DNA of 64,000 bases from an uncultured Planctomycetota bacterium (GCA_963763175.1 CAVXOB010000004.1:27938-91937); one strand, 5' to 3'. Positions 5,855 to 47,494 are shown, counted from the stretch's first letter. The notes: generated from the sequence alone by a model not told the origin. Numbers and translations are program-made.

Positions 5855-5855
5855 A

Positions 5856-5955: not shown

Positions 5956-6001
5956 CTATGAATAGCATTCCCGTGCGGGGCGAACCGAGAAGGAAACTCG
6001 A

Positions 6002-28983: not shown

Positions 28984-29483
28984 CGTGGCCCAACGCAATC
29001 GCCGGCGAATGGATACGACTCGTCAGTCATGAGTCGACGAGGCAACGAGTTTCTTCACGCTGGATATATCGTCTTATCTTCTTTGCAAATTTTGCTTTGT
29101 TGTCACTCAACACATTGGGCGGTGAGTTCACATTGGACGGTGACTTCAGTGCCTCGTCAGGGTGAAGCCATCTGCCGTATTTTGCAACAGCGTTCAGGCC
29201 TTCGCGGAGGGGGTTGCGTGGCGTTCACGGCGTCGTTTCAACGAGATGGGCACCCGTCGCGTATCCGATTCGGCAAGGCTACTTTGCTGCCAAACGATTT
29301 TCAGAATCGATCGCACCAACTCGCTCCATCGCCTTAATTGTCAGTGCGATTAATCGGATGCGGCAACTAGGCTTGGATACCTGGACCGAGGGAAATAGGA
29401 TACTCTGTGGGCATGACGCCCCACCCCCTCTCTCGTGGTGGCCCGCATTCTTTCATCCTGTTTGATTCCAAATTTTTCTGCAT

Positions 29484-31685
29484 ATGAATACGACTGGAAC
29501 CGCATTCGACGCATTGGTGGGTCCCTGCCGCTCTGATCCGGACCGCCTGCGTTTAACATTCCTTCACGAAAGTGGGGTGGGCGAAGCGGTCACCGGGCGC
29601 GAGCTAATCGAGCGCTCCGAGGCGTTAGGGCAGCGGTTGATTGAGGGCACGCGCGCGGGCGACCGGGTTTTACTAGCGTTCCCGGCCGGGATCGATTTTG
29701 TGGTTTCATTCCTGGGGGCGGTTTGGGCGGGGTTGATCCCTGTGCCGGTACCGTATCCGAAACCACGGCGGCCGCTGTCTCGCTATCAAACGATTGCCTC
29801 GGACAGTTCCGCACTGCTGGGCTTAACGAATCGCGAAACGCTGGAACGAGTCGATTCGGAAAGCATCTCATCGGTGCGCTGGCTCTCACCCTCCGATGAC
29901 CTGGGCGGTGATGCGCCGGAAGCTCTGCGTCGGTTGAACGGTGCCAACACGCGACGGCCCGATCCGGAAGCCTTGTTTTTGCAATACACGTCTGGGTCGA
30001 CCGGGATCCCCAAGGGTGTGCGGGTCACGTTGTCGAATTTGATGACCAATCTGGAAGTCATCCAGCATGGGTTCGGACTGGGGCAATTGCCCACGGACCG
30101 TCGGATCGTGTGCAGTTGGTTGCCCGCTTATCACGACATGGGTTTGGTAGGGATTATTTTGTCCACCCTGGTCCACGACGGTCACGCCATTTTCATGTCA
30201 CCAACCTCGTTCATGCAGCGGCCGTCGCGATGGTTGTCGGCGGTGAGTGACTACCGCGCCGCGATCACCGTGGCCCCTTGCTTCGGATACCGCTATGCGG
30301 CCGCAAAGGTCACCGATGAGGAAATTTCGGGGCTGGACCTGAGTTGTTTGAGGGTGGCCGCATGCGGCGCCGAACCAATCGATGCGACGGTATTGAGAGC
30401 ATTTTCGCAGCGTTTTGCCAGTGTTGGATTTTCCGATAGCGCATTCTATCCCTGCTACGGACTGGCCGAATGCACATTGATGGTCACGGGCAGCGACCGC
30501 GCAGCTAGCAACGCAGTTCCGCGAGATGGCAGCGAGTCCCCATTGAATGCGCCCGGCTATCTCAGCCAACAAATTAGTCGCCAAGGGATGCGTGACTCGA
30601 TCGCGCGTCCTCCGCGTGACGCTGGCGACGCGGTCGAGTTAGTGTCGTCGGGCGTTTCAGGCAATGCGACGCTTGTTCGCATCGTGGATCCCGCTTTGCA
30701 ACTTCCACTTGATGAGAACGACATCGGCGAGATTTGGGTTCACTCCAATAGCGTCGCCGATGGTTATTGGGGCAAACCCGAGACGAGTGAAAGCGTTTTC
30801 GCGAGCAGACTGCCTGGCGATGAACGACGCTACCTGCGCACGGGTGACCTGGGCTATTTGAGCAACGGACAACTCTACGTGACCGGACGATTGAAAGACT
30901 TGATCATCCTCCGCGGGCAAAATCACTATCCAGAGGATTTGGAGCGGACCGTCCGGGTTAACATGGGTGGTCGAGTTGACTGCCTTAGCGCAGTGTTTTC
31001 GGTTCCCAGCGACACAGGCGAGTCACTGGCAATCGTGCAGGAAGTCCCACGAGGATTCTCAGTGGATCAGTCGGGCGAGTTGCTCGATGCGATCAGGATG
31101 TCTGTCGCGGGCGAGCATGATTTGATCGCCTCCGCGATCCTGTTGATTCGGTTCGCTTCGATGCCCCGAACCAGTAGCGGAAAGGTTCAACGAAGCCAAT
31201 GCCGTCAACAATTCTTGGATGATTCCCTCAAAGTGATCGATCGCTGGCAGCCAACGATTCAACTCGATCCGACCCTGTTTCCCAACAAGCAAGAACTGAC
31301 CCGCTCAGTCGACGTGTCCAGCCCAGGCGGGCGCCAGATCGTTTGCGAGCGGATCGAACGGGTGTTGCTGAGGTGGTTGACTCGCCAGTTAGCTTGTGAC
31401 AAAAACTCGATCGAAGCGCAGCGCCCATTCGCCGAGTGCGGAATCGATTCGCTCATGGCGGTTGAAATGAGTAGTCAACTGGAACACTGGCTCGACGTCC
31501 GACTCTCGCCGGTCATTGCATGGTCGCATCCCAACGCCGAAAAATTGGCTGAGTATCTGACGGATCAATTGCTCGGTCCCGGCCCGCAACCCGTTGAGGC
31601 GGCTGAACAGAGCATCGAGGCCCTACTCGCCGAAATTGAATCGATGAACGAAATGGAAGTGCTCAATGAAATCAGAAAGCCCTAG
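29484..31685 (+). CDS. Fatty acyl-AMP ligase (FAAL) fused to a C-terminal acyl carrier protein domain
   Basis: 733 aa. The AMP-binding core is LQYTSGSTGIPKGVRVTLSNLM, followed by YLRTGDLGY and GRLKDLIILRGQNHYPEDLE. The C-terminal carrier domain has the phosphopantetheine site ECGIDSLMAVEM. Confidence 0.9.
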   Translation: MNTTGTAFDALVGPCRSDPDRLRLTFLHESGVGEAVTGRELIERSEALGQRLIEGTRAGDRVLLAFPAGIDFVVSFLGAVWAGLIPVPVPYPKPRRPLSRYQTIASDSSALLGLTNRETLERVDSESISSVRWLSPSDDLGGDAPEALRRLNGANTRRPDPEALFLQYTSGSTGIPKGVRVTLSNLMTNLEVIQHGFGLGQLPTDRRIVCSWLPAYHDMGLVGIILSTLVHDGHAIFMSPTSFMQRPSRWLSAVSDYRAAITVAPCFGYRYAAAKVTDEEISGLDLSCLRVAACGAEPIDATVLRAFSQRFASVGFSDSAFYPCYGLAECTLMVTGSDRAASNAVPRDGSESPLNAPGYLSQQISRQGMRDSIARPPRDAGDAVELVSSGVSGNATLVRIVDPALQLPLDENDIGEIWVHSNSVADGYWGKPETSESVFASRLPGDERRYLRTGDLGYLSNGQLYVTGRLKDLIILRGQNHYPEDLERTVRVNMGGRVDCLSAVFSVPSDTGESLAIVQEVPRGFSVDQSGELLDAIRMSVAGEHDLIASAILLIRFASMPRTSSGKVQRSQCRQQFLDDSLKVIDRWQPTIQLDPTLFPNKQELTRSVDVSSPGGRQIVCERIERVLLRWLTRQLACDKNSIEAQRPFAECGIDSLMAVEMSSQLEHWLDVRLSPVIAWSHPNAEKLAEYLTDQLLGPGPQPVEAAEQSIEALLAEIESMNEMEVLNEIRKP

Positions 31686-31794
31686 AGCCTATCCGAAAAG
31701 GGGGCTGACCGGTCTGACCCTTTGGAGGCGAGTTATTTCACAAAGTATTTATCGGCCTCGCCGGAGAGGGTCAGACCCCTTTTCGGATAGGCTC
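31685..31794. repeat. Palindromic REP/MITE-like element, copy C (best preserved)
   Basis: The arms are GAGCCTATCCGAAAAGGGGGCTGACCGGTCTGACCCTTTGGAGGCGAG and GCCTCGCCGGAGAGGGTCAGACCCCTTTTCGGATAGGCTC. Its first base overlaps the last base of the FAAL TAG stop (31683-31685). Confidence 0.8.
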
Positions 31795-31919
31795 TTAAAT
31801 CCATTGGAACATAAGTGGCGGTTATTCTGTCTCAGCTATTCTGTCTCAGCGCTGCCTAGCCGCCGAGAGTCGTAGCGGCAGGATGCCGCCGATACGTCAA
31901 TTCCTGCTGCCGTCGTTTC

Positions 31920-32705
31920 TTAGCGAGACCGCAGTGTTTGGTCGATCATCCTGAGCACGGGCGCGGGATGATTCTTCATAAAAAAGTGGCCGCCGGCAAA
32001 TTGGCGACAGGTGAATTTGCCCGTCGTTGCTTTTCGCCAACCATTTAAATCCTTCAATGTCACGATTCGATCGTCGGCACCTCCGACAGCCGTGATCGGA
32101 CACGTCAGGGGTGGCTCCTCTTGGTAGACATGCGTTTCATAGACCCGCATATCGGCCCGAATCGCTGGCAATACTAACTCGAGCATCGCCGGGCTGTCCG
32201 CAATCTCCTTGGGGATCGCCCCGTACCAATTTCGTAGCTTATAGACCATTTCGTCGTCGGGCAAAGATGCGACCGGTTGACTCACTCCGAGCGCATGGGG
32301 CGGACGGCAGGCCGCCACAAACAATTGCTGGATCATCCGATCGCGCGCCCGCAAACGACGCGCTAGCTCGAACGCGACCAGCCCGCCAAAGCTGCAACCC
32401 AACAGTGTCAGAGGTCGATCTACGAACGGTCCATGAATTATTGCTTCGGCGAGCTGCTCGACCAAATCATCGATATTGTCGATAGGGGCTTCTTTCAGAC
32501 GCCCATCACGCCCGGGCAACTGGACCGCGAACAAATCGGCAGCATGAAAATTGCGTGCCCGCCAACCACCGAAAACCGCGCTTCCCATCCCGGCATAGGG
32601 TAGACAAATGATAACTTCCTGATGTCCGGTATCCGTCAGATGCGCAAACCATGGGGACGCTTGAGTGGGCGGTTTCATTGAGTCGGCCATGAAGTATACT
32701 GACAA
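31920..32705 (-). CDS. Type II thioesterase (alpha/beta hydrolase)
   Basis: 261 aa. Seen are ICLPYAGMGSAVFGGW, the nucleophile elbow GCSFGG and the C-terminal GGHFF motif. It is divergent from the PKS, 155 nt away. Confidence 0.85.
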   Translation of the reverse strand: MSVYFMADSMKPPTQASPWFAHLTDTGHQEVIICLPYAGMGSAVFGGWRARNFHAADLFAVQLPGRDGRLKEAPIDNIDDLVEQLAEAIIHGPFVDRPLTLLGCSFGGLVAFELARRLRARDRMIQQLFVAACRPPHALGVSQPVASLPDDEMVYKLRNWYGAIPKEIADSPAMLELVLPAIRADMRVYETHVYQEEPPLTCPITAVGGADDRIVTLKDLNGWRKATTGKFTCRQFAGGHFFMKNHPAPVLRMIDQTLRSR

Positions 32706-32860
32706 GGTAAAATGGATAAGCAGTGGGGGTTGTCGAACGCCTCATCTTGCACTGTCTTTCGATCGTGTCTAGCCGCCCAGTTTGGATTTGTCTCCGTTCC
32801 GGCGAACCAGGAAGGTTGCCTTCACCACTTCGCAACTCTGATGACGACTTCGCTGGCACT

Positions 32861-35800
32861 ATGAATAGTATAACGCAAAGACTCGAAAATCTGTCTCCGG
32901 CTCAACGTGAACTGTTGAAGCAACGTTTGTCTCAGGAGTCGGCAGGTGTTCAGGAACCGATTGCGATCGTTGGCATGGCCTGCCGATTTCCCGAGGCGGA
33001 CAACCTGCAGCAATATTGGGATCTGATCCTTCGCGGAGGCAACGCCACCCAAGTGATCCCTCGCGACCGTTTTCCTGTAGAACAACTCTATCACAAAGAC
33101 TACGACACTCCGGGGAAGCTGATTTCCAAATGGGCGTGCTTACGTGAAGACTTGGGCTATTTCGACCCTAAGTTTTTTGGCATCGCACCGCGAGAAGCCT
33201 CGCGGATGGACCCACAACAACGAATGCTCCTAGAGGTCGCTTGGGAGGCGATGGAACATGCGGGCATCCCGCCAGCCGAATTGTCGAAGTCACCCACCGG
33301 CGTTTTCATCGGAGTATCGCAGGTCGACTACATCAAGTTGGCGGGACAGTTCGATGATTTTTTGGAGATGATTGACGCTCACACAGGCACGGGCAATTCG
33401 TTGAGTCTTTGCGCCAATCGCTTGTCATATGTGTTCAACTTTAGCGGTCCGAGTGCATCCGTCGACACCGCGTGCTCGTCTGGATTGGTGGCATTGCACC
33501 ACGCCGTCCAGAGCCTTCGAGCGAGGGAATGCGACGCAGCCTTAGCCGGGGCGGCCAACATCTGCATCACTCCCGATTCGATGATCTCGCTGTCGCGAGC
33601 CCGGATGGTTTCGCCGACCGGACAATGTCGGCCTTTCCATCAGGACGCTGACGGATATGTACGCGGCGAAGGCAGCGGCGTGGTCGTGCTGAAGCGTCTG
33701 TCCGACGCGATCGAAACAGGCGACCGGGTGCTGGCGGTGCTCCGTCACACGGCCGTCAACCACGGCGGACGCACCTCCGGGATCACCGCTCCCAATGGAT
33801 CGGCGCAGGTCCGTGTGATGCGCAAGGCCCTCGCTGGCGGCGGAGTGTCGCCCAGCGAAATCGATTATATCGAAGCCCACGGCACGGGGACTCCCCTAGG
33901 TGATCCCATCGAAGTTGAGGCTCTTGGTGAAGTCTATCGGCAGCAAACGCCCGATGACCGACCTGTCTATCTGACGAGCGTCAAAGCCAATATCGGTCAC
34001 CTGGAAATTGCCGCAGGCATTGCCGGATTGATCAAAGCGGTCATGGTGCTGCGAAGTCGCACAGTGCCACAACAGCCGGGACTCGATACCATCAATCCGC
34101 GCATTCGGACGGAGGGGACTCGGATTCGTATTCCTACCGAAACGACCTCGCTGGGCGAACCCGGATCAAGACATTTGGCCGGCGTGAGCAGCTTTGGTTT
34201 CGGGGGAACCAACGCGCACGCGGTCATCGAATCGGTCGCTGACCCTGATGTGGCGGTTCCATCGGAAAACCCGCGTGACTATCACCTGCTGACGTTATCA
34301 GCTCAGTCCGACGACTCGCTGAAATCGCTGGCCGCATCGTACCGCGACGTGTTAGAAACACTCGACTTCCATCGGATTGGCGATTTCTGTCACGCTGCGG
34401 CGGTCAACCGAACTCATCACCCCCGACGTGCCACCGTCCGCGTCGAGAGCAAAGAGCAGTTGCTCGCCGACCTCAAAAAACTTGCTGCCGGCAAGAAGTC
34501 GCCAAGCATTCGTCGTGGTAATGTTCAGTTTCGCGGACGCGGCCGGATCGGATTCCTATTCACCGGCCAAGGATCACAGATTCCCGGCATGGGCTGCGAC
34601 CTCTATCATAGCCAACCCGTCTTTCGCGATATGATGGATCAGTGTGAAGCGTTCTTCCAAAGCGAGCGAGGCGAGTCGCTGCTGACGGTGATGTTTGATG
34701 AAAACGCGGTCGAGAAACTCAACGACACCGCTTGGACTCAGCCCGCCTTATTCGCGCTAGAAGTTTCGCTGGCGATGTTATGGAAAAGCTGGGGCATCAC
34801 GCCTTGCATCGTGATGGGGCACAGCGTTGGGGAATATGCCGCAGCTTACATGGCCGGTGTGTTTTCATTGAAAGACGGTTTACGACTGATCGCCAAGCGG
34901 GGCGAATTGATGAGCCGATTGCCCGCCGGTGGTGCCATGGCAGTGGTGTTCGACGATGAGGCCGCGGTGATTGAATTGCTGAAACCGTTTGAGGGTCGGT
35001 TGGAAATTGCCGCGCTCAACGGACCTGAGAACACGACCGTTTCGGGAACCGAAGACGCGTTGCAGGAGTTAATCTCGCATTGCGAGTCCGTGGGCGTTGG
35101 ATGCCAGCGTTTAACTGTATCGCACGCATTCCATTCCCATCTGATGGATCCGATTCTGGACGAATTCGAACAGTACGCATTGAGCGTCGAATTTTCTGCG
35201 CCAGATATTTCCTTGATTAGCAACCTCACCGGTGAATTGGTTGATGAACAGGTCACAACGCCTTCCTACTGGCGAGAACACATCCGTGGCAGCGTGCAAT
35301 TTTCGCATGGCGTGGCCACGATGTCAGCGGAGGAACTCGATGCGCTGATCGAAATCGGTCCCACGCCGGCGCTCGTCGGGATGGCCAAACGATGCATGCC
35401 GGATTGGTCCGTAGCGACGATTGCGTCGCTACGCAAAGGAAAGTCGGACGTCTCTGCTTTGATGGATGGTGTCGCGGACCTATTCGTCGCCGGTGGAACG
35501 TTGGACTGGGCCGGAGTCGACCGCCCGTGGAGTTTTAATCAGATCGATTTGCCCTCCTACCCCTTCGATCGACAGTACTATTGGCTTGAATCGGAAGGTA
35601 ATAACGAGCGTCTGGACGATGTGTTCGGACTCAATATCATTCATCCCTTGTTGGGGAAATCGATCAGAGCGGCCGAGTCGACGATCTTTCAGTGCAAGAT
35701 GCGTTCGAGCAATCCCGAATCGATGCGAGACCACGTCGTTCAAGGTTCGACCCTGGTGCCGGGGTCAGGTTTCACTGAAATGGGTTTCGCCGCTGCGACT

Positions 35801-39568: not shown

Positions 39569-39571
39569 CAC

Positions 39572-39594
39572 AGGCGTGATCCGCCTCTTTTCTC
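39572..39594 (+). terminator. Weak intrinsic-terminator-like hairpin after the PKS
   Basis: The stem-loop is AGGCG-TGATC-CGCCT (39572-39586), followed by CTTTTCTC. It lies between the convergent PKS and MFS genes. Confidence 0.3.
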
Positions 39595-39617
39595 ACAACC
39601 GGAGCTAGCGCAATCAC

Positions 39618-40883: not shown

Positions 40884-41676
40884 ACCGGATATGCGTAATC
40901 TTCATCACCTCACGTAGAAATCGACCGTAGTGCGGTAGAACCTTCACCAAGCGGTACCATCGCCATCGCTCGACGAACCGGTCGACCAGCGACCATTCGC
41001 TTATAAACTGGAAATTGGGATCCCAACTGGATAGCTCGCGTCCGGAGTGGATTCCCCAGAGAAGCTCCGCCCGAGTCCGACGTAAAATAGGCACCGACTT
41101 TTTGCGCCCAACAATTCCAGGACAGACCGACTGAAACACCAGTTCAGCTCTGGGGAAACGCTGCAGCATCTTCAACAGCAGATCCTTCATGGATGCTTCG
41201 TCGAAATAAAAAAACAATGCTTCTGCCACGATCAGCGTCGGCGCGTCGGCACCCACATCGTCAAACCAAGATGTATCGAACATCGATTTGGAAATGAAGA
41301 CGTTTCGATCCGTCGGGGTGAGAAAACGACGACGCAATTCGATCGAGTCCGGCACGTCCAAGTCATACCAGCGGATTCGACCATTGTCCAAACGCTGGAA
41401 CCGCGCATCCAGACCGGCACCTAAATTGATGACCCGTCCATCGGGATAACGCTCCATGAAATCAGTAACCAGCTCGTCGAACATCACCGTTCGCACGACG
41501 ACATCGTTGCGAAGCGACCAAGCCGCATCGAAGTTAGAGAAATCATAGTCCAACTCCGGCAGGATCTCGACGGCAGCTTGATCATAGAACAGCCGATGCT
41601 CTCGCCTGCTCTCGGTCGCCCGATAATACAACGGGATCAAAAGCGTTTCTTGAATACTTCCAAGTTCAATGCCCAT
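40864..41676 (-). CDS. SAM-dependent O-methyltransferase of the TcmP/leucine-carboxyl-methyltransferase family
   Basis: The start was moved to ATG 41676 (MGIELGSIQETLLIPLYYRATES...). Seen are VINLGAGLDARFQRLD and RWYDLDVPDSIELRR, typical of polyketide O-MTs of the LCM fold. It overlaps the MFS start by 20 nt. Confidence 0.75.
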   Translation of the reverse strand: MGIELGSIQETLLIPLYYRATESRREHRLFYDQAAVEILPELDYDFSNFDAAWSLRNDVVVRTVMFDELVTDFMERYPDGRVINLGAGLDARFQRLDNGRIRWYDLDVPDSIELRRRFLTPTDRNVFISKSMFDTSWFDDVGADAPTLIVAEALFFYFDEASMKDLLLKMLQRFPRAELVFQSVCPGIVGRKKSVPILRRTRAELLWGIHSGRELSSWDPNFQFISEWSLVDRFVERWRWYRLVKVLPHYGRFLREVMKITHIRFAVDGA

Positions 41677-41692
41677 GCCGAAGGCTCCTGGC

Positions 41693-42622
41693 TTACGCGG
41701 TATCGGAAGAGTGCGGCATCGACTTCGTCTCGGTTTTTTCCCGAAATCCATAAACCATTTTGTCGGCGGGAGACGATTGGCTGAAGCCGGTCGCCGTCTC
41801 AAAGCCCTGATTCTTGAGTATCTGTTCTATGTGCCGCATGGCGTCATCGCCGCGGTGCGTTTCTACAACGACTTGGCGAACTCGCAGCCAATCCTCTTGA
41901 CTGACAGCTTCCAAAATTTCGATTTCCGCACCCTCCGCATCGACTTTCAGGTAATCGACGTGGCCAATCGAATGGTCGTTAAGAATGTCGCCGATGGAGG
42001 TCAGTTCGCAACGGACGGTTTCATGCCGACCATGGTGCTTTATTAAGACTTTGGCGACCGCCACACGGACAAAGTGAGGAAGGCAGCCCAGGAACTTTGC
42101 CAGCATACGGTTGGGGTGTTGGTCAAACGCATTGAGCGTGAAATCGATCGCGCGCTGTTTTTGTTCGTCCGAGTCGTCTGGACACATTGTTGAGCTGCAA
42201 CTAAATCGCGGAAGATGTCGGAACTCGTTGACGCTCTTCTCCTTCCATACGCCTTGATTGGTGAGAGTGACCCGGTGTTCGGCTGGGCGAATCAATTGGC
42301 GATTGTGTTGCAAAACTCTGAATGTTTCAGGAATTGGTTCGAAACAGAAATAATTCAAGCGTTCATAATGATCTGTCGCGTAAAGCAGAAATAATCCTAT
42401 ATTGGATCCAATATCAATCACCGTCGCGCCGTCATGAAGGTGCACGTTCAATTGATCGTAAATCTTTTCACGAAATATCTCGTCATAGATCAACCACGTT
42501 TCGGACGCATTCATATGAGCGATCGTGCGACCGTTGGGCAATGTCGTCTGGGGTAGTTCAGAGTGCGATGTCGCAGGTTGTGGAGAGTCGTGAGTCGCGG
42601 CCGTCACTGGGGAAGCGTTCAT
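41693..42622 (-). CDS. FkbM-family methyltransferase
   Basis: 309 aa. Seen are VIDIGSNIGLFLLYA and VDYLKVDAEGAEIEILE. There is an ATGA start/stop overlap with the upstream Rieske gene at 42619-42622. Confidence 0.8.
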   Translation of the reverse strand: MNASPVTAATHDSPQPATSHSELPQTTLPNGRTIAHMNASETWLIYDEIFREKIYDQLNVHLHDGATVIDIGSNIGLFLLYATDHYERLNYFCFEPIPETFRVLQHNRQLIRPAEHRVTLTNQGVWKEKSVNEFRHLPRFSCSSTMCPDDSDEQKQRAIDFTLNAFDQHPNRMLAKFLGCLPHFVRVAVAKVLIKHHGRHETVRCELTSIGDILNDHSIGHVDYLKVDAEGAEIEILEAVSQEDWLRVRQVVVETHRGDDAMRHIEQILKNQGFETATGFSQSSPADKMVYGFREKTETKSMPHSSDTA

Positions 42623-43725
42623 GATGCGGTCATGTGGTTCGCGATGTAGTTTTGAAAATGAAAGATTCGTTCTTCGCGAATCGAGATCACGCCGCCTTGG
42701 GGACGACTGGGTGATCGGATTCCTGCCTGGTTGAGCGACAGGATCGCGACATCTTCATCCTGGATCTGCTTTAGAAATCTTCGGCCCCACCGCCGCGATA
42801 GACACGATAGTCCAGCAGTGTACCACCGGTCTCTTCGCCCGCGATACGCGAATCCCCGTGTGACGACCATGGTTGATTCTGCAGCGATAGGAATGATCGC
42901 CTCCAAATAGGAAAATCCGGCCATGCGAATAAAGGTCAGAGTTGGATACACATGCACGTGTTGATAGGGTTCGCGTTCCAGCTCTAACCACTGATGCGTT
43001 TTCTGATCGAGCCAGCGCGAGACCGCGTCCGGCGCTTCTTGGTCACCAATAAACCGAGTTGATCGTTCTTTGAAATCGTGTTGGCATTGCTCTGGATCAG
43101 GACGACGCACCAGCGTCGCCGCATGAACCGTATCGATATGATAGCTCTCCAGCCCATTCTCAATATATGTCTTCCAGTTGCACGGAATCGACTCTGAATA
43201 GGACATCATGGGAACCCATCGATCATGAAACCATTGATCAATGAGTTCGCCGCGTTCACCAAGGAACTCGCTCAATGGCATGCCGCCATCTGGCAGGGAA
43301 ACGAAGATCAAACCGGCTCGCGTCTCACAGCGAAACTCATGCAAACCCAGTTCACCCTTCTTCAATGGCTTGAAACTAGGCGCGTCTGGAATGCGTTTAG
43401 TTTGGCCCGCGTCGTCATACTCCCACCCGTGGTATTGGCACTTCATTCTCGCCGCATTGCCGCGCGCTTTCTCGGTGAGGGTGCAGAAACGATGCGAACA
43501 CACGTTCAGAAACGCGCGGATGGAATCTTCGCCTCGGCGTACCAGTACCGGTCGGTCGAGGATCATCAAAGTTATAAAATCACCAACTTGTGGTACATCG
43601 GATTGACATCCAACACAGTGCCAGGCCGGTTCCAATAAAACGCGTTTTTCGGCGTTGAAATACTTTTCTGAAACATAGCTGCTTGCATCCAATACCTGCG
43701 GGCTATGTGTCTCACTTAAGAACAT
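42619..43725 (-). CDS. Rieske [2Fe-2S] non-heme-iron oxygenase, alpha-subunit type (paralog 1)
   Basis: The Rieske motif is CSHRFCTLTE...MKCQYHGWEYD. The mononuclear iron motif is NGLESYHIDTVH. The start was set at the Met that aligns with paralog 2 (MFLSETH...); the track start is 43734. Confidence 0.85.
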   Translation of the reverse strand: MFLSETHSPQVLDASSYVSEKYFNAEKRVLLEPAWHCVGCQSDVPQVGDFITLMILDRPVLVRRGEDSIRAFLNVCSHRFCTLTEKARGNAARMKCQYHGWEYDDAGQTKRIPDAPSFKPLKKGELGLHEFRCETRAGLIFVSLPDGGMPLSEFLGERGELIDQWFHDRWVPMMSYSESIPCNWKTYIENGLESYHIDTVHAATLVRRPDPEQCQHDFKERSTRFIGDQEAPDAVSRWLDQKTHQWLELEREPYQHVHVYPTLTFIRMAGFSYLEAIIPIAAESTMVVTRGFAYRGRRDRWYTAGLSCLSRRWGRRFLKQIQDEDVAILSLNQAGIRSPSRPQGGVISIREERIFHFQNYIANHMTAS

Positions 43726-44909
43726 GCTGAACATCCCGCAGTTGGGATTGGAGGAATAGCAGAAGACGTTGGAGAAACCGGTTGAGAATTTTCGCCGTGG
43801 TCCCGATTGGCAGTGCGGTCGAGAATATATTTTTGGAAGTGAAACACGCGTTCTTCACGAATCGATACCAAGCCTCCACTTGGTTGGATCGGTGACTGCA
43901 GCCCGCGCTGGATGCTTGGAAAAATCCGTTCATCTTCGTCGATGACGCGTTGGAACCAACGCCGACCCCATGCCGCTAGCACGAAATTGACGAGTTTGCC
44001 GCGGGCTGTCTGTGGATCAACCGCGTTGCTAAAGAATCGCCATTGGTCGTGAGAGTCGTTTGGCGAATTCGGATACACCGCCTCCATCCAACTGAACATT
44101 CCAAATTTGGCAAAAACTAAATTGGGATAACAATGGAACTGGTGATACGTCGCATCTCCATCGATACCGGCAATTTTCGACGCCCAGCGGGCCAACCGAG
44201 TCAACGGTGTCTCTTCATCCGACGCGACCCCCAGCGAACTGTGTGACGCATCATGAAGTTCGTGCCGACAATCTCCAGCCCTAGGGAAGTTTCCAAACGT
44301 TCCCGAATGGACCTCCGCTAGATGATATCCCTCGAGCGAGTTCTCTAATGACACCTTCCAATTAGCATGATTGTTTCGGCGTGCCGACAATACGAGGCGA
44401 CTACGTTCGGGGAACAGCATTTTGCACAGTTCGTAGCCATCACCTAGGTATTCCCCCAGTGGGGTCGGTTCGGGGTTCAATGATATGAAGATCAATCGCC
44501 CTACAGTCTCGCACCTCAATTTAGTGAGTCCGAGTTGACCGCGGTGAAGCGGTTTGAAGCTTTGAGCGTCTGGGATTCGCTTGGTTTCTCCGGACTTGTC
44601 GTATTCCCAGCCATGATAACGACATTTCAAACGCGCCATATTTCCACAGGCCGCGTCGGTCAGCAAGCTGAAACGATGTGCGCAGACGTTGAGATAGGCG
44701 TGAGGCTGACCCTCGGACCACCAGACTAAGATAGGTCGTTGAAAAAGCTCGGCGGTGAAATAGTCGCCGTGCCCCTTCAATTCCGCGGTGGTTCCAACGC
44801 AGTGCCAGCCGGGCAAAAACAATGCGTCAAGCTCCTTCTGATGTTGTTCCGGGGCGAAATAGGCTTCCGTGGGAAGAAGTTGCGCCAGGTGAGTCTCGCT
44901 GAGGAACAT
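43716..44909 (-). CDS. Rieske [2Fe-2S] non-heme-iron oxygenase, alpha-subunit type (paralog 2)
   Basis: The Rieske motif is CAHRFSLLTD...LKCRYHGWEYD. The iron motif is NSLEGYHLAEVH. It is collinear with paralog 1 from the N-terminus MFLSETH onward. Confidence 0.85.
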   Translation of the reverse strand: MFLSETHLAQLLPTEAYFAPEQHQKELDALFLPGWHCVGTTAELKGHGDYFTAELFQRPILVWWSEGQPHAYLNVCAHRFSLLTDAACGNMARLKCRYHGWEYDKSGETKRIPDAQSFKPLHRGQLGLTKLRCETVGRLIFISLNPEPTPLGEYLGDGYELCKMLFPERSRLVLSARRNNHANWKVSLENSLEGYHLAEVHSGTFGNFPRAGDCRHELHDASHSSLGVASDEETPLTRLARWASKIAGIDGDATYHQFHCYPNLVFAKFGMFSWMEAVYPNSPNDSHDQWRFFSNAVDPQTARGKLVNFVLAAWGRRWFQRVIDEDERIFPSIQRGLQSPIQPSGGLVSIREERVFHFQKYILDRTANRDHGENSQPVSPTSSAIPPIPTAGCSACS

Positions 44910-45070
44910 GGTGCCAATCGCAGGGGGCAGGTCTCGGCAGTCGTCGGTGCCGGGAACACATTCACATTGGGAACTTTAGGATAACTAAATGTGAAATCCA
45001 ATCAAGTCGGGTGGGCGGCCTTTCGTACCGTCATCTACAACAGTGCTGCCGGACCGATTAGATTGCCGAA

Positions 45071-47494
45071 ATGTCCAACCTCCCTCCGCCCCCATCTCCT
45101 CAGTCAACCTCCGCCGGAGAAGGTTCCGCGAGCACGCACGCCCGAGATCCTCGGGAGCTGCGTCGCCGGCGCTATCAATTCCGCTGGTATTTCGGCTTGC
45201 TCGCGGTGATTCTGCTGGCAATTCCTTCGACGGTCTATTCCGCTGCGGCAATCGCGACGATGCGGAACGTGCCGGACCGATGGTTGCCTCCGAGCTTGCC
45301 ACTGAAGCAAGAGTTTCAGGAGTTCTTCGACCGGTTCGGGGTCGTTGATGTCATGTTTATCTCGTGGGCCGATGCAGACCTGGGGGCGGCGGACGTTCGC
45401 GAGGTAACGATGCTGCTGCGGGAGCTTTCCCAAGAGGAGGGCGACGATTCACTGGATCGGTGGGAGCGAGCCTCCGCGACGGAACCGGTCCGCTTGTTCT
45501 GGCAGCGAGCGATGGAAATCTGTGACGGTCAGCGTCCATTTCAGTGGGTCCGTAGCGGTACGGAAGTTCGTGACTCATTGACCCAAATGCCCTTGAATGC
45601 GTCGGACGTCTCAGCCAACCGGCGACTCAGGGGAACCTTTGTCGGTCCCGACGGAAAACAGACATGCGTCTTTGTCTCATTTTCCGAAGCATCGGGCGCG
45701 CACCAGCGAGCTCTCCTGCCATTGATGCGTCAGGCGATCGCGGATTTGATTGATCGACCTATCGATGAGATTGTATTTGTCGGTGGTCCGGTGGATGGTG
45801 CGGCGGTCGATGGAGAAGCGATCAACTCGATTCAAAAGTACACCGTGCCGTCATCGATCATCGCGGCACTGTTGTGCTGGATATGTTTACGTTCAATCTC
45901 TTTGACGTTTACCATCTTGAGTATTGCCACGGTCGGCCAGGGACTGGTCCTCGCTGTAGTGTATTTCAGCGGCACACCGATGAATGCGATTTTGATTGTG
46001 CTTCCGCCACTCGTCTTTGTCCTCACCGTTTCCTCTGGAATTCATTTAAGCAACTACTACTTCGAATTTATTTTAAATCCGAAAACAACCCCCATCGAGG
46101 CGGTTGAGAGGGCGATGCGAATCGGTGTCCCGCCCTGTTTCGCGGCGGCTTTGACGACGGTCATCGGGATGGTGTCTTTGTCGATGGTGCGTCTGCAACC
46201 CGTACAGATGTTCGGAGCAATCGGCTCGATGGGTGTTCTGCTGACCCTGGGTCTACTGATCTTGATGCTACCTGGCGCCATGCTGTTTGCGAAACGTATC
46301 GCTGTTGCACCGGAGATCGGAGCACGAAACCAAGAATTTGGACGACCGGGTCGGTGGCTGCGTCCGACCGCGATTCTGTCTGTATTCGGAGTGCTCTCCT
46401 GCTTCGCGGCGTTGGGCCTGGGGCGACTGACGACCTCCGTCAGCGTCCCAGATATGTTTTTTCCTGAGAGTGAACTGAGACAACAATACGATTGGTATGA
46501 AAAACATGTCGGTGCGACGATGACTGCGGAAGTCCTGATATCATTTGTGGCACCTGACGAAGACGACATGTCCGCTGGCGAAGGAACTCGCCAGCTCCGT
46601 CAGATTCATCAAGTCCAAGCTGCCCTGATGCGATTACCAGAAATCGGTGGAATCCTATCGGCCGCTAATTTCCTACCTGTCCCCTCTCATCGCGGCGGGA
46701 TCGCAGCAACAGTCTCCCGCGCAGCGATTCAATCGCAAGTGACTGACGAAGACTCAGATATTTATACACTCGGATACGTCGATCAATCCAGAGGCGAACG
46801 GACGTGGCGGCTATCCCTGCGCTTATACCAAACCGGCAATCACGACTTTAACAACATCGTGACAAAGATAGTTGACACTGCGGAAAACACGCTGGAGGAG
46901 TCCGATCAGGGTCCGAGCGCGCGAGTCACGATGACGGGTCACCTCGTGATCGTTGAGGGAACTCAAAAGCTTTTATTGAAGGATTTGTTCACGAGTTTTC
47001 TAGCTGCGTTCGGGGTCATTGCTATATTGATCGCGATCTATCTTCGCAGTGTGGTCGGCGGCATGTTGGCGATGATCCCCAACCTCATCCCCACTTTGTT
47101 TTTGTTCGGGGGGATGGGCTGGTTGCGATGGCCTCTGGATATCGGTTCGGTCATGACCGCCTCGGTGGCCCTAGGGATCGCAGTGGATGATTCGGTTCAT
47201 TTGCTCGCCCAGTACCGTCTTGCTCGGCAAAGCACTTCCAGTGGTCGTTCGGCTGCCCTCATTGCCCTGCGGCATTGCGGTTGGGCAATGCTCCAAACGA
47301 CGGTGGTGTGTAGTTTTTCACTGATGATTTACGGTCTCTCTGAATTTGTACCGACACGTCGCTTTGCCTTTTTCATGCTTGGTTTGTTGACGTTGGCATG
47401 GATCGGGGTAGCGACCCTGCTGCCCGCTATCATGGCCACCCGGTGCGGCGACTTTCTAGCGGGTCGCGTGAAGAACGCTGCCGATTCAACTTGA
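45071..47494 (+). CDS. RND-superfamily exporter (HpnN/MmpL-like, 12 TM, two large periplasmic loops)
   Basis: 807 aa built from two homologous TM bundles. The first contains VLPPLVFVLTVSSGIHLSNYY and the second MTASVALGIAVDDSVHLLAQY. It is divergent from the Rieske/MT/MFS operon. Confidence 0.85.
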   Translation: MSNLPPPPSPQSTSAGEGSASTHARDPRELRRRRYQFRWYFGLLAVILLAIPSTVYSAAAIATMRNVPDRWLPPSLPLKQEFQEFFDRFGVVDVMFISWADADLGAADVREVTMLLRELSQEEGDDSLDRWERASATEPVRLFWQRAMEICDGQRPFQWVRSGTEVRDSLTQMPLNASDVSANRRLRGTFVGPDGKQTCVFVSFSEASGAHQRALLPLMRQAIADLIDRPIDEIVFVGGPVDGAAVDGEAINSIQKYTVPSSIIAALLCWICLRSISLTFTILSIATVGQGLVLAVVYFSGTPMNAILIVLPPLVFVLTVSSGIHLSNYYFEFILNPKTTPIEAVERAMRIGVPPCFAAALTTVIGMVSLSMVRLQPVQMFGAIGSMGVLLTLGLLILMLPGAMLFAKRIAVAPEIGARNQEFGRPGRWLRPTAILSVFGVLSCFAALGLGRLTTSVSVPDMFFPESELRQQYDWYEKHVGATMTAEVLISFVAPDEDDMSAGEGTRQLRQIHQVQAALMRLPEIGGILSAANFLPVPSHRGGIAATVSRAAIQSQVTDEDSDIYTLGYVDQSRGERTWRLSLRLYQTGNHDFNNIVTKIVDTAENTLEESDQGPSARVTMTGHLVIVEGTQKLLLKDLFTSFLAAFGVIAILIAIYLRSVVGGMLAMIPNLIPTLFLFGGMGWLRWPLDIGSVMTASVALGIAVDDSVHLLAQYRLARQSTSSGRSAALIALRHCGWAMLQTTVVCSFSLMIYGLSEFVPTRRFAFFMLGLLTLAWIGVATLLPAIMATRCGDFLAGRVKNAADST

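What the first reader, a model, noticed from the sequence alone, without database searches (positions are those of the whole stretch)
29484..47494. Orphan FAAL / fully reducing type I PKS / RND-exporter lipid cluster with Rieske and methyltransferase tailoring
Seen in sequence, nine contiguous genes:
- FAAL-ACP (29484-31685).
- A type II thioesterase (31920-32705, minus strand).
- A single-module KS-AT-DH-ER-KR-ACP PKS (32861-39568).
- A tightly packed, partly overlapping minus-strand operon: Rieske oxygenase x2, an FkbM methyltransferase, a TcmP/LCM-type methyltransferase and an LplT-like MFS (44909 down to 39618).
- A divergently transcribed RND/HpnN/MmpL-like exporter (45071-47494).

Established knowledge: FAALs activate fatty acids and hand them to PKSs. 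KS-AT-DH-ER-KR-ACP is the architecture of the mycobacterial MAS-like iterative PKSs. FadD(FAAL)-Pks-MmpL synteny is the hallmark of mycobacterial envelope-lipid loci.

Inference: this locus probably elongates a fatty acyl starter with malonyl units, since the AT carries HAFH. It would then oxygenate and methylate the product and export it to the cell envelope. I know of no characterised product for this gene combination in Planctomycetota. It is the best candidate in the window for an undescribed system.
Basis: partly seen in the sequence, partly recalled or inferred. Interest (0 to 1): 0.8.

Follow-up and report, generated by a model that had tools for sequence, protein, structure and literature searches.

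The report
Orphan planctomycete fatty-acid/polyketide lipid gene cluster
This is a real, conserved but modular gene cluster in a Pirellula-type planctomycete that most likely lengthens a fatty acid, methyl-esterifies, hydroxylates and O-methylates it, then exports it; the product is unknown, so it is a reasonable but not exceptional lead for a new bacterial lipid.

Summary
All nine genes are present at the stated coordinates, and every catalytic motif I checked is intact.

**How the cluster is built**
- The invariant core is three genes: FAAL-ACP (+), a discrete thioesterase (-) and a MAS-like, malonyl-specific KS-AT-DH-ER-KR-ACP PKS (+).
- The same four tailoring genes (Rieske, Rieske, FkbM methyltransferase, LCM-fold methyltransferase) recur as a group. 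In strain SH139 they lie next to a completely different PKS.
- An LplT-like MFS and an MMPL/RND pump come and go between genomes.

**Synteny**
- Two overlapping metagenome scaffolds, probably one organism, keep all nine genes in the same order at 56-78% identity.
- The closest cultured relative, Allorhodopirellula solitaria CA85 (PKS 85%), keeps only FAAL, TE, PKS, LCM and RND.
- Flanking genes are not shared.
- Only eight PKS orthologues at 59% identity or more appear among the 8,000 candidates scored from a database of 5.8 billion proteins.

**Function and novelty**
- Best reading: a fatty acid is extended, released, methyl-esterified at its carboxyl, hydroxylated at sp3 carbons, O-methylated and exported.
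- I found no published product or description.
- It is a new variant of the FAAL-PKS-MmpL type of lipid locus. It is not a member of the mycobacterial family: the AT carries a malonyl signature and there is no Pap acyltransferase.
- Interest is moderate.

The parts
29484..31685 (+). FAAL-ACP didomain, the fatty-acid loader. Residues after the ACP form a short acidic, helix-like tail that may act as a docking element.
   Evidence: Pfam finds AMP-binding, DIP2-like C-domain and PP-binding. NCBIfam FAAL models score 1e-116 to 1e-95 against about 1e-35 for CoA ligases. The best PDB hits are all FAAL-type: 7r7f at 2e-122, 3kxw, FadD23, FadD32 and FadD28. It is conserved in L005 (80%), L106 (65%), L107 (61%) and L108 (46%).
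31920..32705 (-). Discrete alpha/beta-hydrolase thioesterase of the type II TE family, the probable chain-release enzyme. The likely true start is the Met at about 32690.
   Evidence: PF00975 at 3.5e-37. The GCSFGG nucleophile motif and a C-terminal GGH are present. It lies between FAAL and PKS on the opposite strand in every related locus: L005, L106, L086, L107 and L108.
32861..39568 (+). Single-module, fully reducing type I PKS, KS-AT-DH-ER-KR-ACP (MAS-like), with a malonyl-type AT and no terminal TE, R or C domain.
   Evidence: Pfam. Motifs found: DTACSS, HGTGT, KANIGH, GHSVG, HAFH, HVVQGSTLVP, LIHAGAGGVG, TGGLGALG, SAYGAAN and GLDSL. The best PDB hit is M. tuberculosis mycocerosic acid synthase 9d2y at 957 bits. 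HAFH is present in all 10 related PKSs.
39572..39586 (+). Terminator-like hairpin 4 nt after the PKS stop codon. This is weak evidence.
   Evidence: The consensus scan found it, but the total number of such sites is not above the shuffled expectation.
39618..40883 (-). MFS transporter related to the lysophospholipid-transporter (LplT) domain of Aas fusion proteins. It is an accessory gene.
   Evidence: MFS_1 at 5e-16. It matches the N-terminal domain of PRK08633 at 2e-45 and LplT at 8e-16, both far below the curated cut-offs. It is present in L106/L085 (56-57%), L088 and L089, and absent in L005, L086 and L107.
40864..41676 (-). LCM-fold SAM methyltransferase, the probable carboxyl O-methyltransferase that forms the methyl ester.
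   Evidence: PF04072 at 54 bits. The database gene call is 270 aa. The AF2 model has pLDDT 93. Foldseek's top hits are PPM1/LCMT1, ML2640c, TYW4 and Rv0731c. ML2640c and Rv0731c were shown to be small-molecule carboxyl methyltransferases (PMC10193983). In CA85 this is the only tailoring enzyme.
41693..42622 (-). FkbM-family SAM methyltransferase, the probable hydroxyl O-methyltransferase. It is an accessory gene.
   Evidence: PF05050 at 9e-14. TIGR01444 scores 74.3 bits, above its cut-off of 37.7. It travels with the Rieske pair in L106, L088, L109, L003, L004, L008 and L009.
42619..43734 (-). Rieske non-heme-iron oxygenase alpha subunit, paralogue 2. It is an accessory gene.
   Evidence: Rieske and Ring_hydroxyl_A domains. 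The CSH...CQYH and ESYHIDTVH motifs are present. It is 40% identical to paralogue 1. Orthologues are present in L106 (77%), L088 (65%) and L109 (49%).
43716..44909 (-). Rieske non-heme-iron oxygenase alpha subunit, paralogue 1. It is an accessory gene.
   Evidence: Pfam. C76, H78, C96, H99, H196, H201 and D326 are invariant in 47 homologues. The AF2 model has pLDDT 89. The nearest folds are Stc2 and CntA at TM 0.7-0.8. Named homologues are planctomycete.
44910..45070 (.). Divergent 161-bp intergenic region between the tailoring operon and the RND gene, the presumed promoter region.
   Evidence: The RND-proximal half aligns with the LCM-RND intergenic region of A. solitaria CA85. No sigma-70 or sigma-54 consensus site scored above chance.
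45071..47494 (+). MMPL/HAE3-type RND transporter, the probable lipid exporter.
   Evidence: PF03176 at 60.7 bits, above its cut-off of 20.5. TIGR00921 (HAE3) scores 2e-31, while the MMPL and HpnN subfamily models score far below cut-off. It is conserved and divergently transcribed in L005 (76%), L106 (61%) and L088 (53%). Unrelated MMPL genes also lie near LCM or the triad in L001 and L108.

Best explanation
This is a self-contained but modular lipid biosynthetic gene cluster of a Pirellulaceae planctomycete.

**Shown by sequence and synteny**
- A FAAL-ACP didomain, a discrete thioesterase and a MAS-like fully reducing, malonyl-type PKS form an invariant three-gene core.
- An LCM-fold methyltransferase and an MMPL/RND pump usually accompany the core.
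- Two paralogous beta-subunit-less Rieske oxygenases, an FkbM methyltransferase and an LplT-like MFS are optional additions.

**Inferred mechanism**
1. The FAAL adenylates a long-chain fatty acid and loads it on its own ACP.
2. The PKS extends it with malonyl units to a saturated longer chain, in one round or, like MAS, iteratively.
3. The thioesterase releases the free acid.
4. The LCM-fold enzyme methylates the carboxylate to a methyl ester.
5. The two Rieske enzymes each hydroxylate an unactivated sp3 carbon.
6. FkbM converts a hydroxyl to a methoxy group.
7. The neutral lipid is moved out of the cytoplasmic membrane by the MFS and/or the MMPL pump.
For: **Domains and motifs**
- Domain calls and intact catalytic motifs.
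- FAAL identity.
- The PKS is closest to mycocerosic acid synthase.
- HAFH is present in all 10 related PKSs.

**Synteny**
- All nine genes are kept in L085/L106.
- The RND-to-MFS stretch is kept in L088.
- Reduced forms occur in CA85/L005, L086, L107 and L108.
- Flanking genes are not shared.
- On the PKS distance tree the window and CA85 are sisters, with the nine-gene L106 outside them. The smaller CA85 cluster is therefore best explained by loss.

**Tailoring genes as a recurring group**
- The Rieske/Rieske/FkbM/LCM genes recur beside a different PKS in strain SH139 and other planctomycete loci.
- Their G+C is lower, 0.51-0.53 against 0.555-0.58 for the other cluster genes.

**LCM enzyme as a carboxyl methyltransferase**
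- Its nearest folds are PPM1/LCMT1, TYW4, ML2640c and Rv0731c.
- ML2640c and Rv0731c were shown biochemically to be carboxyl methyltransferases (PMC10193983).
- In CA85 the LCM enzyme is the only tailoring enzyme on a fully reduced product. The carboxylate is then the only obvious nucleophile.

**Rieske enzymes**
- The Rieske1 model is closest to CntA and Stc2, which are alpha-only monooxygenases of sp3 C-H bonds.
Against: - There is no experimental or expression evidence of any kind.
- Starter chain length, number of elongation rounds, hydroxylation sites and the final acceptor are all unknown.
- The OPCMT-like enzymes tested in PMC10193983 did not accept lauric acid. The planctomycete LCM subfamily is only distantly related to them: profile E is 6.6e-5 to ML2640c, and the enzyme falls below the TIGR00027 cut-off.
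- The Rieske enzymes' closest structural relatives act on quaternary ammonium compounds, not lipids.
- No reductase or ferredoxin partner and no PPTase were found among the 41 window ORFs scanned.
- The thioesterase belongs to the family usually described as editing (type II) enzymes.
- A fully saturated C2-extended fatty acid is an odd end-product unless the PKS works iteratively.
Confidence: 0.55

Rival explanations
1. The chemistry is the same or similar, but the product is a diffusible signal or bioactive metabolite rather than a structural envelope lipid. An example would be a fatty-acid methyl ester signal like the 3-hydroxy fatty acid methyl esters of Ralstonia. The transporters would then serve secretion.
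For: - The cluster is rare and patchy. Only about eight orthologous PKSs are listed, and the accessory genes are lost in the nearest cultured species. That pattern is more typical of specialised metabolism than of an essential envelope component.
- Methyl esterification gives a neutral, membrane-permeant molecule.
- The comparison with Ralstonia signals comes from my own knowledge and was not tested.
Against: - MMPL-type pumps beside FAAL-PKS pairs are best known for envelope lipids.
- No receptor or regulator gene is conserved with the cluster.
Confidence: 0.25
2. The thioesterase is only an editing enzyme. The PKS-bound acyl chain is instead transferred to an acceptor such as a sugar, polyol, amino acid or lysolipid, by an acyltransferase encoded elsewhere. 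The methyltransferases and Rieske enzymes would then decorate that conjugate or its head group.
For: - The TE belongs to the PF00975 family, whose discrete members are usually editing enzymes.
- MAS-like PKSs in mycobacteria off-load through Pap acyltransferases (established knowledge).
- A PapA_C/condensation-like gene sits next to the LCM gene in L004.
- The nearest relatives of the Rieske enzymes oxidise head-group-like quaternary amines.
Against: - No acyltransferase or condensation gene was found among the 41 window ORFs scanned, or in L005, L106, L107 or L108.
- The TE is retained in every version of the triad, even the minimal ones.
- A sister PKS (P0195) carries a fused terminal TE, although that TE is not detectably similar to this one.
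Confidence: 0.15
3. This is a membrane-lipid remodelling system of the LplT/Aas kind. The MFS flips a lysophospholipid or imports a free fatty acid, FAAL-ACP re-activates the acid, and the PKS lengthens it for re-acylation of membrane lipids.
For: - The MFS matches the transporter domain of MFS-acyltransferase-acyl-ACP-synthetase fusion proteins at 2e-45, and LplT at 8e-16.
- FAAL-ACP does in cis what the Aas synthetase domain does.
Against: - No PlsC-type acyltransferase is present.
- The MFS is dispensable: it is absent from CA85, L086, L107 and L108.
- Both NCBIfam scores are far below the curated cut-offs.
- This reading does not explain the Rieske and methyltransferase genes.
Confidence: 0.07
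4. The tailoring and transport genes are unrelated neighbours, for example Rieske enzymes of an aromatic catabolic pathway, and only FAAL/TE/PKS work together.
For: - CA85 and L107 do without the Rieske and FkbM genes.
- Automatic annotations call the Rieske proteins ring-hydroxylating dioxygenases.
Against: - The gene order is identical with translational overlaps in L085/L106, and in L088 from the RND gene through the MFS.
- The same four tailoring genes accompany a second PKS type in SH139 and other genomes.
- There is no beta subunit, reductase, dihydrodiol dehydrogenase or ring-cleavage gene nearby.
Confidence: 0.03

Closest known systems
Mycobacterial FadD(FAAL)-Pks(MAS-like)-MmpL envelope-lipid loci, such as FadD28-Mas-MmpL7 for PDIM and FadD23-Pks2-MmpL8 for sulfolipid-1
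   Same: - A FAAL lies next to a KS-AT-DH-ER-KR-ACP PKS and an MMPL-family RND pump.
- The PKS's best solved-structure match is M. tuberculosis MAS, and NCBIfam's second-best model is Pks2.
- FadD23, FadD32 and FadD28 are among the best FAAL structure hits.
   Different: - The AT carries the malonyl signature HAFH, not a methylmalonyl signature, so no methyl branches are expected.
- The FAAL carries its own ACP.
- There is no Pap-type acyltransferase, and a discrete thioesterase is present instead.
- Tailoring is by Rieske oxygenases plus FkbM and LCM methyltransferases.
- The RND scores far below the MmpL and HpnN subfamily cut-offs.
- The host is a planctomycete.
Cyanobacterial and myxobacterial FAAL-ACP-primed PKS pathways, in which a fatty acid is loaded by a FAAL with a cis or adjacent ACP
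   Same: - The loader is a FAAL-ACP.
- The best FAAL structure match is a FAAL domain deposited as 'Polyketide synthase' (7r7e/f/g, 2e-122).
- The KS-AT linker matches CurL-like models.
   Different: - Those pathways usually continue into multi-module PKS or NRPS lines, or end in sulfotransferase-TE or reductase domains.
- Here a single fully reducing module is followed by a free TE and a Rieske/methyltransferase set.
- Cyanobacterial loci that share an LCM homologue (L058, L070) are NRPS-PKS hybrids with unrelated content.
LCM-fold small-molecule carboxyl methyltransferases: TcmP of tetracenomycin biosynthesis, and the OPCMT-like enzymes ML2640c and Rv0731c
   Same: - The PF04072 fold is present.
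- ML2640c and Rv0731c are among the top structural matches at TM 0.71-0.76.
- A conserved Thr11...Arg19 and Glu152...Tyr157 have the same spacing as the Thr20...Arg28 and Glu189...Tyr194 landmarks of ML2640c (PMC10193983).
   Different: - Sequence similarity is low: profile E is 6.6e-5 to 1e-7, and the TIGR00027 score of 44 is below the 93.55 cut-off.
- It forms its own subfamily with an N-terminal QETLLIPLY motif.
- The characterised OPCMT enzymes rejected flexible fatty acids such as lauric acid.
Alpha-only (alpha3) Rieske monooxygenases CntA (carnitine), Stc2 (stachydrine) and GbcA (glycine betaine)
   Same: - The Rieske CxH...CxxH motif and the 2-His-1-carboxylate site are present.
- There is no beta subunit.
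- These are the best structural matches at TM 0.7-0.8 and the best NCBIfam family (GbcA).
- They perform monooxygenation at sp3 carbon.
   Different: - Identity is only 18-20%.
- NCBIfam scores of 87-101 bits lie far below the 670 cut-off.
- No partner reductase gene is adjacent.
- The genomic context is PKS and lipid related, not quaternary-amine catabolism.
Planctomycete clusters built on a different large PKS (KS-KS-AT-KR-KR-DH, plus an SDR, and in some loci a PPTase): SH139 (L109), Bythopirellula (L002/L034), CA13 (L001), L003, L004 and L087
   Same: - They share orthologues of LCM (47-52%), and in several cases of Rieske1, Rieske2 and FkbM.
- CA13 also has an adjacent MMPL gene.
   Different: - The assembly line is entirely different, with no FAAL and no MAS-like PKS.
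- They carry an SDR, in some loci a PPTase, a 162-171 aa orphan protein, and sometimes a reductase, glycosyltransferases or a PapA-like gene.
- They are also uncharacterised. Their resemblance to PUFA or heterocyst-glycolipid synthases is from memory and was not tested.

Membership tests
Mycobacterial FadD-Pks-MmpL lipid locus | A FAAL gene lies adjacent to the PKS it primes. | tested here: met
   The FAAL-ACP gene is 1.2 kb upstream of the PKS. FAAL models are the best NCBIfam and PDB hits.
Mycobacterial FadD-Pks-MmpL lipid locus | The PKS has the MAS-like KS-AT-DH-ER-KR-ACP architecture. | tested here: met
   Pfam gives this domain order. The best PDB hit is MAS 9d2y at 957 bits.
Mycobacterial FadD-Pks-MmpL lipid locus | The AT is methylmalonyl-specific and gives multimethyl-branched acids. 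| tested here: not met
   The AT motif is GHSVG...HAFH, the malonyl type, in this PKS and in all nine relatives.
Mycobacterial FadD-Pks-MmpL lipid locus | A Pap-type acyltransferase off-loads the chain onto a polyol or sugar. | tested here: not met
   No condensation or PapA domain was found among the 41 window ORFs scanned. A discrete TE is present instead.
Mycobacterial FadD-Pks-MmpL lipid locus | The transporter belongs to the MmpL subfamily of RND pumps. | tested here: inconclusive
   Pfam MMPL scores 60.7 bits, above its 20.5 cut-off. TIGR00833 scores 73.8 against a cut-off of 874.7, and the best subfamily is HAE3. No solved MmpL or HpnN structure matched; the only PDB hit is CmeB at 4e-4.
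Fatty acyl-AMP ligase (FAAL) | The adenylation domain is closer to FAALs than to acyl-CoA synthetases. | tested here: met
   FAAL families score 1e-116 to 1e-86, against 1e-35 or weaker for most CoA-ligase models (one, PRK07768, reaches 1e-79). The top 15 PDB hits are all FAAL-type. All scores are below the curated whole-protein cut-offs, so no specific equivalog can be assigned.
Fatty acyl-AMP ligase (FAAL) | The FAAL-specific insertion that blocks the CoA-binding conformation is present. | not tested
LCM-fold small-molecule carboxyl methyltransferase (TcmP / OPCMT-like) | The protein has the LCM fold with a class I SAM-binding core. | tested here: met
   PF04072 scores 54.2, above its 22.3 cut-off. 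The NLGAGLDxR motif, D107 and D134 are conserved. The AF2 model has pLDDT 93, and PPM1, ML2640c, TYW4 and Rv0731c are the top folds.
LCM-fold small-molecule carboxyl methyltransferase (TcmP / OPCMT-like) | The landmark residues Thr20 and Tyr/Phe194 (ML2640c numbering), which hold the carboxylate, are present. | tested here: inconclusive
   T11 is invariant and Y157 nearly invariant. Each has the expected spacing to R19 and E152 (landmarks from PMC10193983). No residue-level alignment to ML2640c could be obtained.
LCM-fold small-molecule carboxyl methyltransferase (TcmP / OPCMT-like) | The protein passes the NCBIfam TIGR00027 subfamily threshold. | tested here: not met
   It scores 44 bits against a cut-off of 93.55.
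Rieske non-heme iron oxygenase, alpha-only monooxygenase group (CntA / Stc2 / GbcA) | The Rieske [2Fe-2S] ligands and the mononuclear iron 2-His-1-carboxylate site are present. | tested here: met
   CxH...CxxH and E-x-Y-H-x4-H are present in both paralogues. C76, H78, C96, H99, H196, H201 and D326 are invariant in 47 sequences.
Rieske non-heme iron oxygenase, alpha-only monooxygenase group (CntA / Stc2 / GbcA) | There is no beta subunit, and the fold is closest to alpha3 monooxygenases. | tested here: met
   No small-subunit gene lies in the cluster. Foldseek's top hits are Stc2 and CntA at TM 0.7-0.8.
Rieske non-heme iron oxygenase, alpha-only monooxygenase group (CntA / Stc2 / GbcA) | The protein is equivalent to GbcA or CntA, meaning a quaternary-amine substrate and a dedicated reductase partner. 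| tested here: not met
   GbcA scores 87-101 bits against a cut-off of 670. Identity is 18-20%. No reductase was found among the 41 window ORFs scanned.
FkbM-family methyltransferase | The protein matches the family model above threshold. | tested here: met
   TIGR01444 scores 74.3 bits, above its 37.7 cut-off. PF05050 scores 52.4, above 22.7. The substrate is not testable here.
Type II (discrete) thioesterase | The protein has a PF00975 alpha/beta-hydrolase fold with the Ser-His-Asp triad. | tested here: met
   PF00975 at 3.5e-37. GCSFGG, GGADD and GGH are present.
Type II (discrete) thioesterase | The role is editing rather than product release. | not testable with these tools
   It is retained in all triad loci, and the PKS has no terminal release domain. 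Both points favour release, but this is inference.
Lysophospholipid transporter LplT | The protein matches the LplT equivalog model above threshold. | tested here: not met
   NF008397 scores 58 bits against a cut-off of 297. The PRK08633 transporter domain scores 155 bits against a cut-off of 1221.

The most novel reading that the evidence does not exclude
The triad plus the Rieske/Rieske/FkbM/LCM tailoring genes make a so far undescribed class of planctomycete lipids: hydroxy- or methoxy-substituted long-chain (possibly very-long-chain) fatty acid methyl esters. An MMPL pump would place these in the outer envelope, as a Gram-negative counterpart of the mycobacterial wax-like surface lipids. 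The same four-gene tailoring set would be re-used on the products of a second, unrelated PKS type across Planctomycetota, making it a general lipid-decoration toolkit of the phylum.
Probability: 0.2. Interest if true: 0.7.

Novelty: new variant of a known kind. Interest (0 to 1): 0.45.

Why it matters
- **Few linked products.** Very few planctomycete natural products have been linked to genes. Among those listed in the 2025 phylum review are stieleriacines, carotenoids, alkylresorcinols and a chlorinated fatty acid (PMC12673574). None is linked there to a FAAL-primed type I PKS.
- **A concrete hypothesis.** This locus offers a simple, testable route to a new lipid.
- **A natural control.** The cultured type strain A. 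solitaria CA85 has the core plus the LCM and RND genes but lacks both Rieske genes, FkbM and the MFS. Comparative lipidomics could therefore read out each tailoring step.
- **Enzymes of interest.** The same Rieske/Rieske/FkbM/LCM genes accompany two unrelated PKS systems. That points to substrate-tolerant C-H hydroxylases and a fatty-acid carboxyl methyltransferase, which would interest biocatalysis.
- **Limits.** The system is rare, and its general kind (FAAL, reducing PKS and RND pump) is well known.

Tried and rejected
- **Literature.** Nine full-text searches combined FAAL, Rieske, FkbM, MMPL, Planctomycetes, Rhodopirellula, Allorhodopirellula, PF04072, TcmP and hydroxylation. None described this cluster. 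The only useful finds were the OPCMT paper and a note on orphan cyanobacterial multi-Rieske clusters.
- **JGI metagenome scan with the LCM protein.** It returned only distant homologues at 43% identity or less, with no PKS context, so it gave no synteny information.
- **Genome scan with the LCM profile.** Most of the 80 loci were generic LCM homologues in unrelated contexts. Only L005 carries this cluster type. A few planctomycete-type loci (L008-L011, L034) share the LCM and Rieske genes.
- **Cyanobacterial loci with FAAL, PKS and LCM hits (L058, L070).** These turned out to be NRPS-PKS or siderophore-like clusters and are not homologous systems.
- **Promoter and terminator scans.** Sigma-54 and sigma-70 promoter and terminator counts were at or below the shuffled expectation. 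No regulatory conclusion can be drawn.
- **Upstream regions of the FAAL genes.** They do not align convincingly.
- **Rosetta-stone argument for the TE.** A 46%-identical PKS (P0195) has a fused terminal TE, but that domain shows no BLAST similarity to the discrete TE here. The support is weak.
- **Residue-level mapping onto ML2640c.** The attempt failed because LCMT1 hits filled the five displayed alignments.
- **Rejected readings.**
  - Methyl-branched, mycocerosate-like product, because the AT motif is HAFH.
  - Sterol or hopanoid link: SdmA scores 5e-6 and HpnN 4e-10, both only partial matches.
  - Aromatic catabolism.
  - Prophage or mobile-element origin: no PHROG hits, and G+C is near the window mean.
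- **Small ORF 29029-29337.** It has no homologues or domains and is probably not a gene.

Full report
**1. Observation**

Pfam and NCBIfam confirm all the domain assignments.

- **FAAL-ACP, 29484-31685 (+).** It has AMP-binding, a DIP2-like C-terminal subdomain and PP-binding.
- **Thioesterase, 31920-32705 (-).** It matches PF00975.
- **PKS, 32861-39568 (+).** It has KS, AT, DH, ER, KR and ACP, with no terminal release domain.
- **Minus-strand operon, in transcription order.**
  - Rieske1, 43716-44909
  - Rieske2, 42619-43734
  - FkbM methyltransferase, 41693-42622
  - LCM methyltransferase, 40864-41676
  - MFS, 39618-40883
- **MMPL-family RND gene, 45071-47494 (+).** It is transcribed divergently from the operon.

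The only coordinate correction is to the LCM gene. The database gene call is 270 aa, so it starts at 41676, not at the 41802 of the longest ORF. Gene spacings in the operon are -19, -4, +16 and -20 nt.

Catalytic motifs are intact throughout:
- KS: DTACSS, HGTGT, KANIGH.
- AT: GHSVG and HAFH.
- DH: HVVQGSTLVP.
- ER: LIHAGAGGVG.
- KR: TGGLGALG and SAYGAAN.
- ACP: GLDSL.
- TE: GCSFGG and GGH.
- Both Rieske proteins: CxH...CxxH plus E-x-Y-H-x4-H.

The planctomycete origin is supported by a PSCyt1/PSCyt2/PSD1 protein at 24736-27219. The best genome match is Allorhodopirellula solitaria CA85.

**2. Boundaries and context**

- Upstream lie a sigma-54-type activator, the PSCyt protein, S-adenosylhomocysteine hydrolase (27462-28871) and a 102-codon ORF with no homologues.
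- Downstream lie a xylose-isomerase-like TIM-barrel protein, a sigma-70 factor and a kinase-WD40 protein.
- None of these flanking genes is found next to the related clusters. The unit therefore ends at 29484 and 47494, as far as the related contigs allow that to be judged.
- No PPTase, ferredoxin or reductase was found among the 41 window ORFs scanned.

**3. Synteny**

I used the LCM methyltransferase and the PKS as probes and then read genomic contexts. All loci were re-scored with tblastn.

| Locus | Source | PKS identity | Genes present |
|---|---|---|---|
| L085 / L106 | Two overlapping ENA scaffolds, probably one organism | 74% | All nine genes, same order and orientation, 56-78% identity |
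| L088 | ENA contig | contig ends before the PKS | RND, Rieske1, Rieske2, FkbM, LCM, MFS |
| L005 | A. solitaria CA85 | 85% | FAAL, TE, PKS, LCM, RND in the same order. MFS, FkbM and both Rieske genes absent |
| L086 | ENA contig | 60% | One Rieske gene of a different clade, LCM, PKS, TE, FAAL |
| L107 | Logan contig | 69% | Only FAAL(+), TE(-), PKS(+) |
| L108 | Planctomycete contig | 47% | The same triad, with an unrelated MMPL gene a few kb away |

The invariant core is therefore the FAAL-ACP/TE/PKS triad, and everything else is accessory.

A distance tree of the PKSs puts the window and CA85 as sisters, with the nine-gene L106 outside them. The five-gene state of CA85 is then most simply explained by two deletions.

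The orthologous PKS group is very small. Only eight proteins at 59% identity or more were listed, among the 8,000 best word-sharing candidates scored from a 5.8-billion-protein collection. The next tier is at 46-47%.

**4. The tailoring genes recur beside a different PKS**

- LCM homologues of 47-52% identity occur in other planctomycete genomes next to a quite different, very large PKS. Examples are CA13, Bythopirellula, SH139 and several MAGs.
- That PKS has the order KS-KS-AT-KR-KR-DH. An SDR gene accompanies it, and a PPTase gene in some loci.
- In strain SH139 (L109), orthologues of Rieske1 (57%), Rieske2 (49%), FkbM (51%) and LCM (49%) all lie together beside that PKS.
- In the window these four genes have lower G+C, 0.506-0.528 against 0.555-0.579 for the other cluster genes.
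- I conclude that the four genes work together on some feature shared by the products of both assembly lines. The simplest candidates are a long aliphatic chain and its carboxyl end.

**5. What each part probably does**

*FAAL.*
- FAAL models outscore most CoA-ligase models by tens of orders of magnitude.
- The 15 best solved-structure matches are all FAAL-type.
- A short helical tail after the ACP, and the helical N-terminus of the PKS, look like docking elements. This is inference from sequence.

*PKS.*
- Its best solved-structure match is M. tuberculosis mycocerosic acid synthase, an iterative enzyme.
- HAFH indicates malonyl extender units.

*Thioesterase.* It is retained in every triad and the PKS has no release domain, so I take it to be the release enzyme. 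This is inference.

*LCM enzyme.*
- Its AlphaFold model (pLDDT 93) is closest to PPM1/LCMT1, TYW4, ML2640c and Rv0731c.
- A 2023 study showed ML2640c and Rv0731c to be small-molecule carboxyl methyltransferases. The same study cites TcmP as the carboxyl methyltransferase of tetracenomycin E (PMC10193983).
- In CA85 this enzyme is the only tailoring function acting on a fully reduced chain, which leaves the carboxylate as the obvious methyl acceptor.
- Caveats: the planctomycete proteins form their own subfamily (QETLLIPLY motif) with weak sequence similarity to ML2640c. The tested OPCMT enzymes also rejected lauric acid.

*Rieske proteins.*
- They are beta-subunit-less.
- The Rieske1 model (pLDDT 89) is closest to Stc2 and CntA (TM 0.7-0.8), which are monooxygenases of sp3 C-H bonds.
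- This fits aliphatic hydroxylation better than arene dihydroxylation.
- Identity is only about 20%, however, and those enzymes act on quaternary amines.

*FkbM.* FkbM-family enzymes are O-methyltransferases of hydroxyl groups (established knowledge). A Rieske hydroxylation followed by FkbM methylation would give a methoxy group.

*MFS.* It resembles the transporter domain of LplT/Aas proteins but scores far below the curated cut-offs.

*RND.* It passes the Pfam MMPL threshold but not the MmpL or HpnN subfamily thresholds. The only PDB match is CmeB at 4e-4, and no solved MmpL or HpnN matched.

**6. Most likely mechanism**

1. A fatty acid is adenylated and loaded on the ACP of the FAAL.
2. 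The PKS extends it with malonyl units to a longer saturated chain, possibly over several rounds.
3. The thioesterase hydrolyses it from the carrier.
4. The LCM enzyme methyl-esterifies the carboxyl.
5. The Rieske enzymes hydroxylate the chain.
6. FkbM O-methylates a hydroxyl.
7. The MFS and/or MMPL pump export the product.

Steps 1 and 2 rest on strong family assignments. Steps 3 to 7 are inference. The main rivals, weighed under rival explanations, are:
- a secreted signal rather than an envelope lipid;
- off-loading to an unknown acceptor, with the TE acting only as an editor;
- an LplT/Aas-like remodelling system;
- chance neighbourhood.

**7. Comparison with known systems and novelty**

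- The locus works like a mycobacterial FadD-Pks-MmpL locus. It fails two defining features of that family, the methylmalonyl AT and the Pap acyltransferase, and one more is inconclusive. It should not be filed as a member.
- I found no description of the triad, of the recurring tailoring genes or of any product.
- A recent review of the phylum links no type I PKS to any planctomycete product.
- I rate it a new variant of a known kind.
- Interest is moderate at 0.45.
  - In favour: it is a well-defined, testable orphan lipid cluster with a natural control strain and an interesting recurring tailoring set.
  - Against: it is rare, its general logic is familiar, and nothing is yet known about the product.

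Noticed in passing
window 379-2680 (-): A radical SAM protein with DUF3641 (379-1425) lies next to a class I SAM methyltransferase (1484-2680). The pairing recalls the ArsS/ArsM genes of arsenosugar synthesis. That link is from memory and was not tested.
   Followed up: no
window 2765-8964 (+): A 1029-aa Secretin_N protein is followed by a second MMPL transporter split over two ORFs, 6002-7984 and 8011-8964. This may be a frameshift, a sequencing error or a genuine two-part pump.
   Followed up: no
L109 1-9291 (strain SH139); also L001-L004, L087: A second, uncharacterised planctomycete PKS system has the order KS-KS-AT-(AAT-like)-KR-KR-DH with no Pfam ACP hit. It comes with an SDR, in some loci a PPTase, and a 162-171 aa orphan protein. 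It shares the LCM, Rieske and FkbM tailoring genes with the cluster in the window.
   Followed up: partly
window 40864-44909: The four tailoring genes have a G+C of 0.506-0.528, against 0.555-0.579 for the other cluster genes and 0.557 for the window. This suggests a separate evolutionary history.
   Followed up: partly
window 22811-24235 (+); L107 4189-5178: A sigma-54-type activator lies 5 kb upstream in the window, and another lies directly upstream of the FAAL in L107. They are only 24% identical, and no sigma-54 promoter consensus was found above chance.
   Followed up: partly
L068, L071, L081 (Streptomyces), L079 (Gordonia), L075 (Chondromyces), L058/L070 (cyanobacteria): LCM-fold methyltransferases with the same N-terminal QETLLIPLY motif occur widely outside planctomycetes. 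The two cyanobacterial examples I examined lie in NRPS/PKS loci. This looks like a distinct, apparently uncharacterised subfamily that is only remotely related to ML2640c and LCMT1.
   Followed up: partly
window 60406-62034 (-): An IS110-family transposase gene (DEDD_Tnp_IS110 plus Transposase_20).
   Followed up: no
window 18043-19557 (-): An HTTM-domain protein, the vitamin K-dependent gamma-carboxylase-like family. This is unusual in bacteria.
   Followed up: no
window 50303-54499 (+) and 57347-59790 (-): A 1398-aa Ser/Thr kinase fused to WD40 propellers, and two tandem leucine-rich-repeat proteins. These are eukaryote-like signalling architectures, which I recall as typical of planctomycetes (not checked here).
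   Followed up: no
window 29029-29337 (+): A 102-codon ORF between the SAH hydrolase gene and the FAAL gene has no domain or homologue in related loci. It is probably not a gene.
   Followed up: yes
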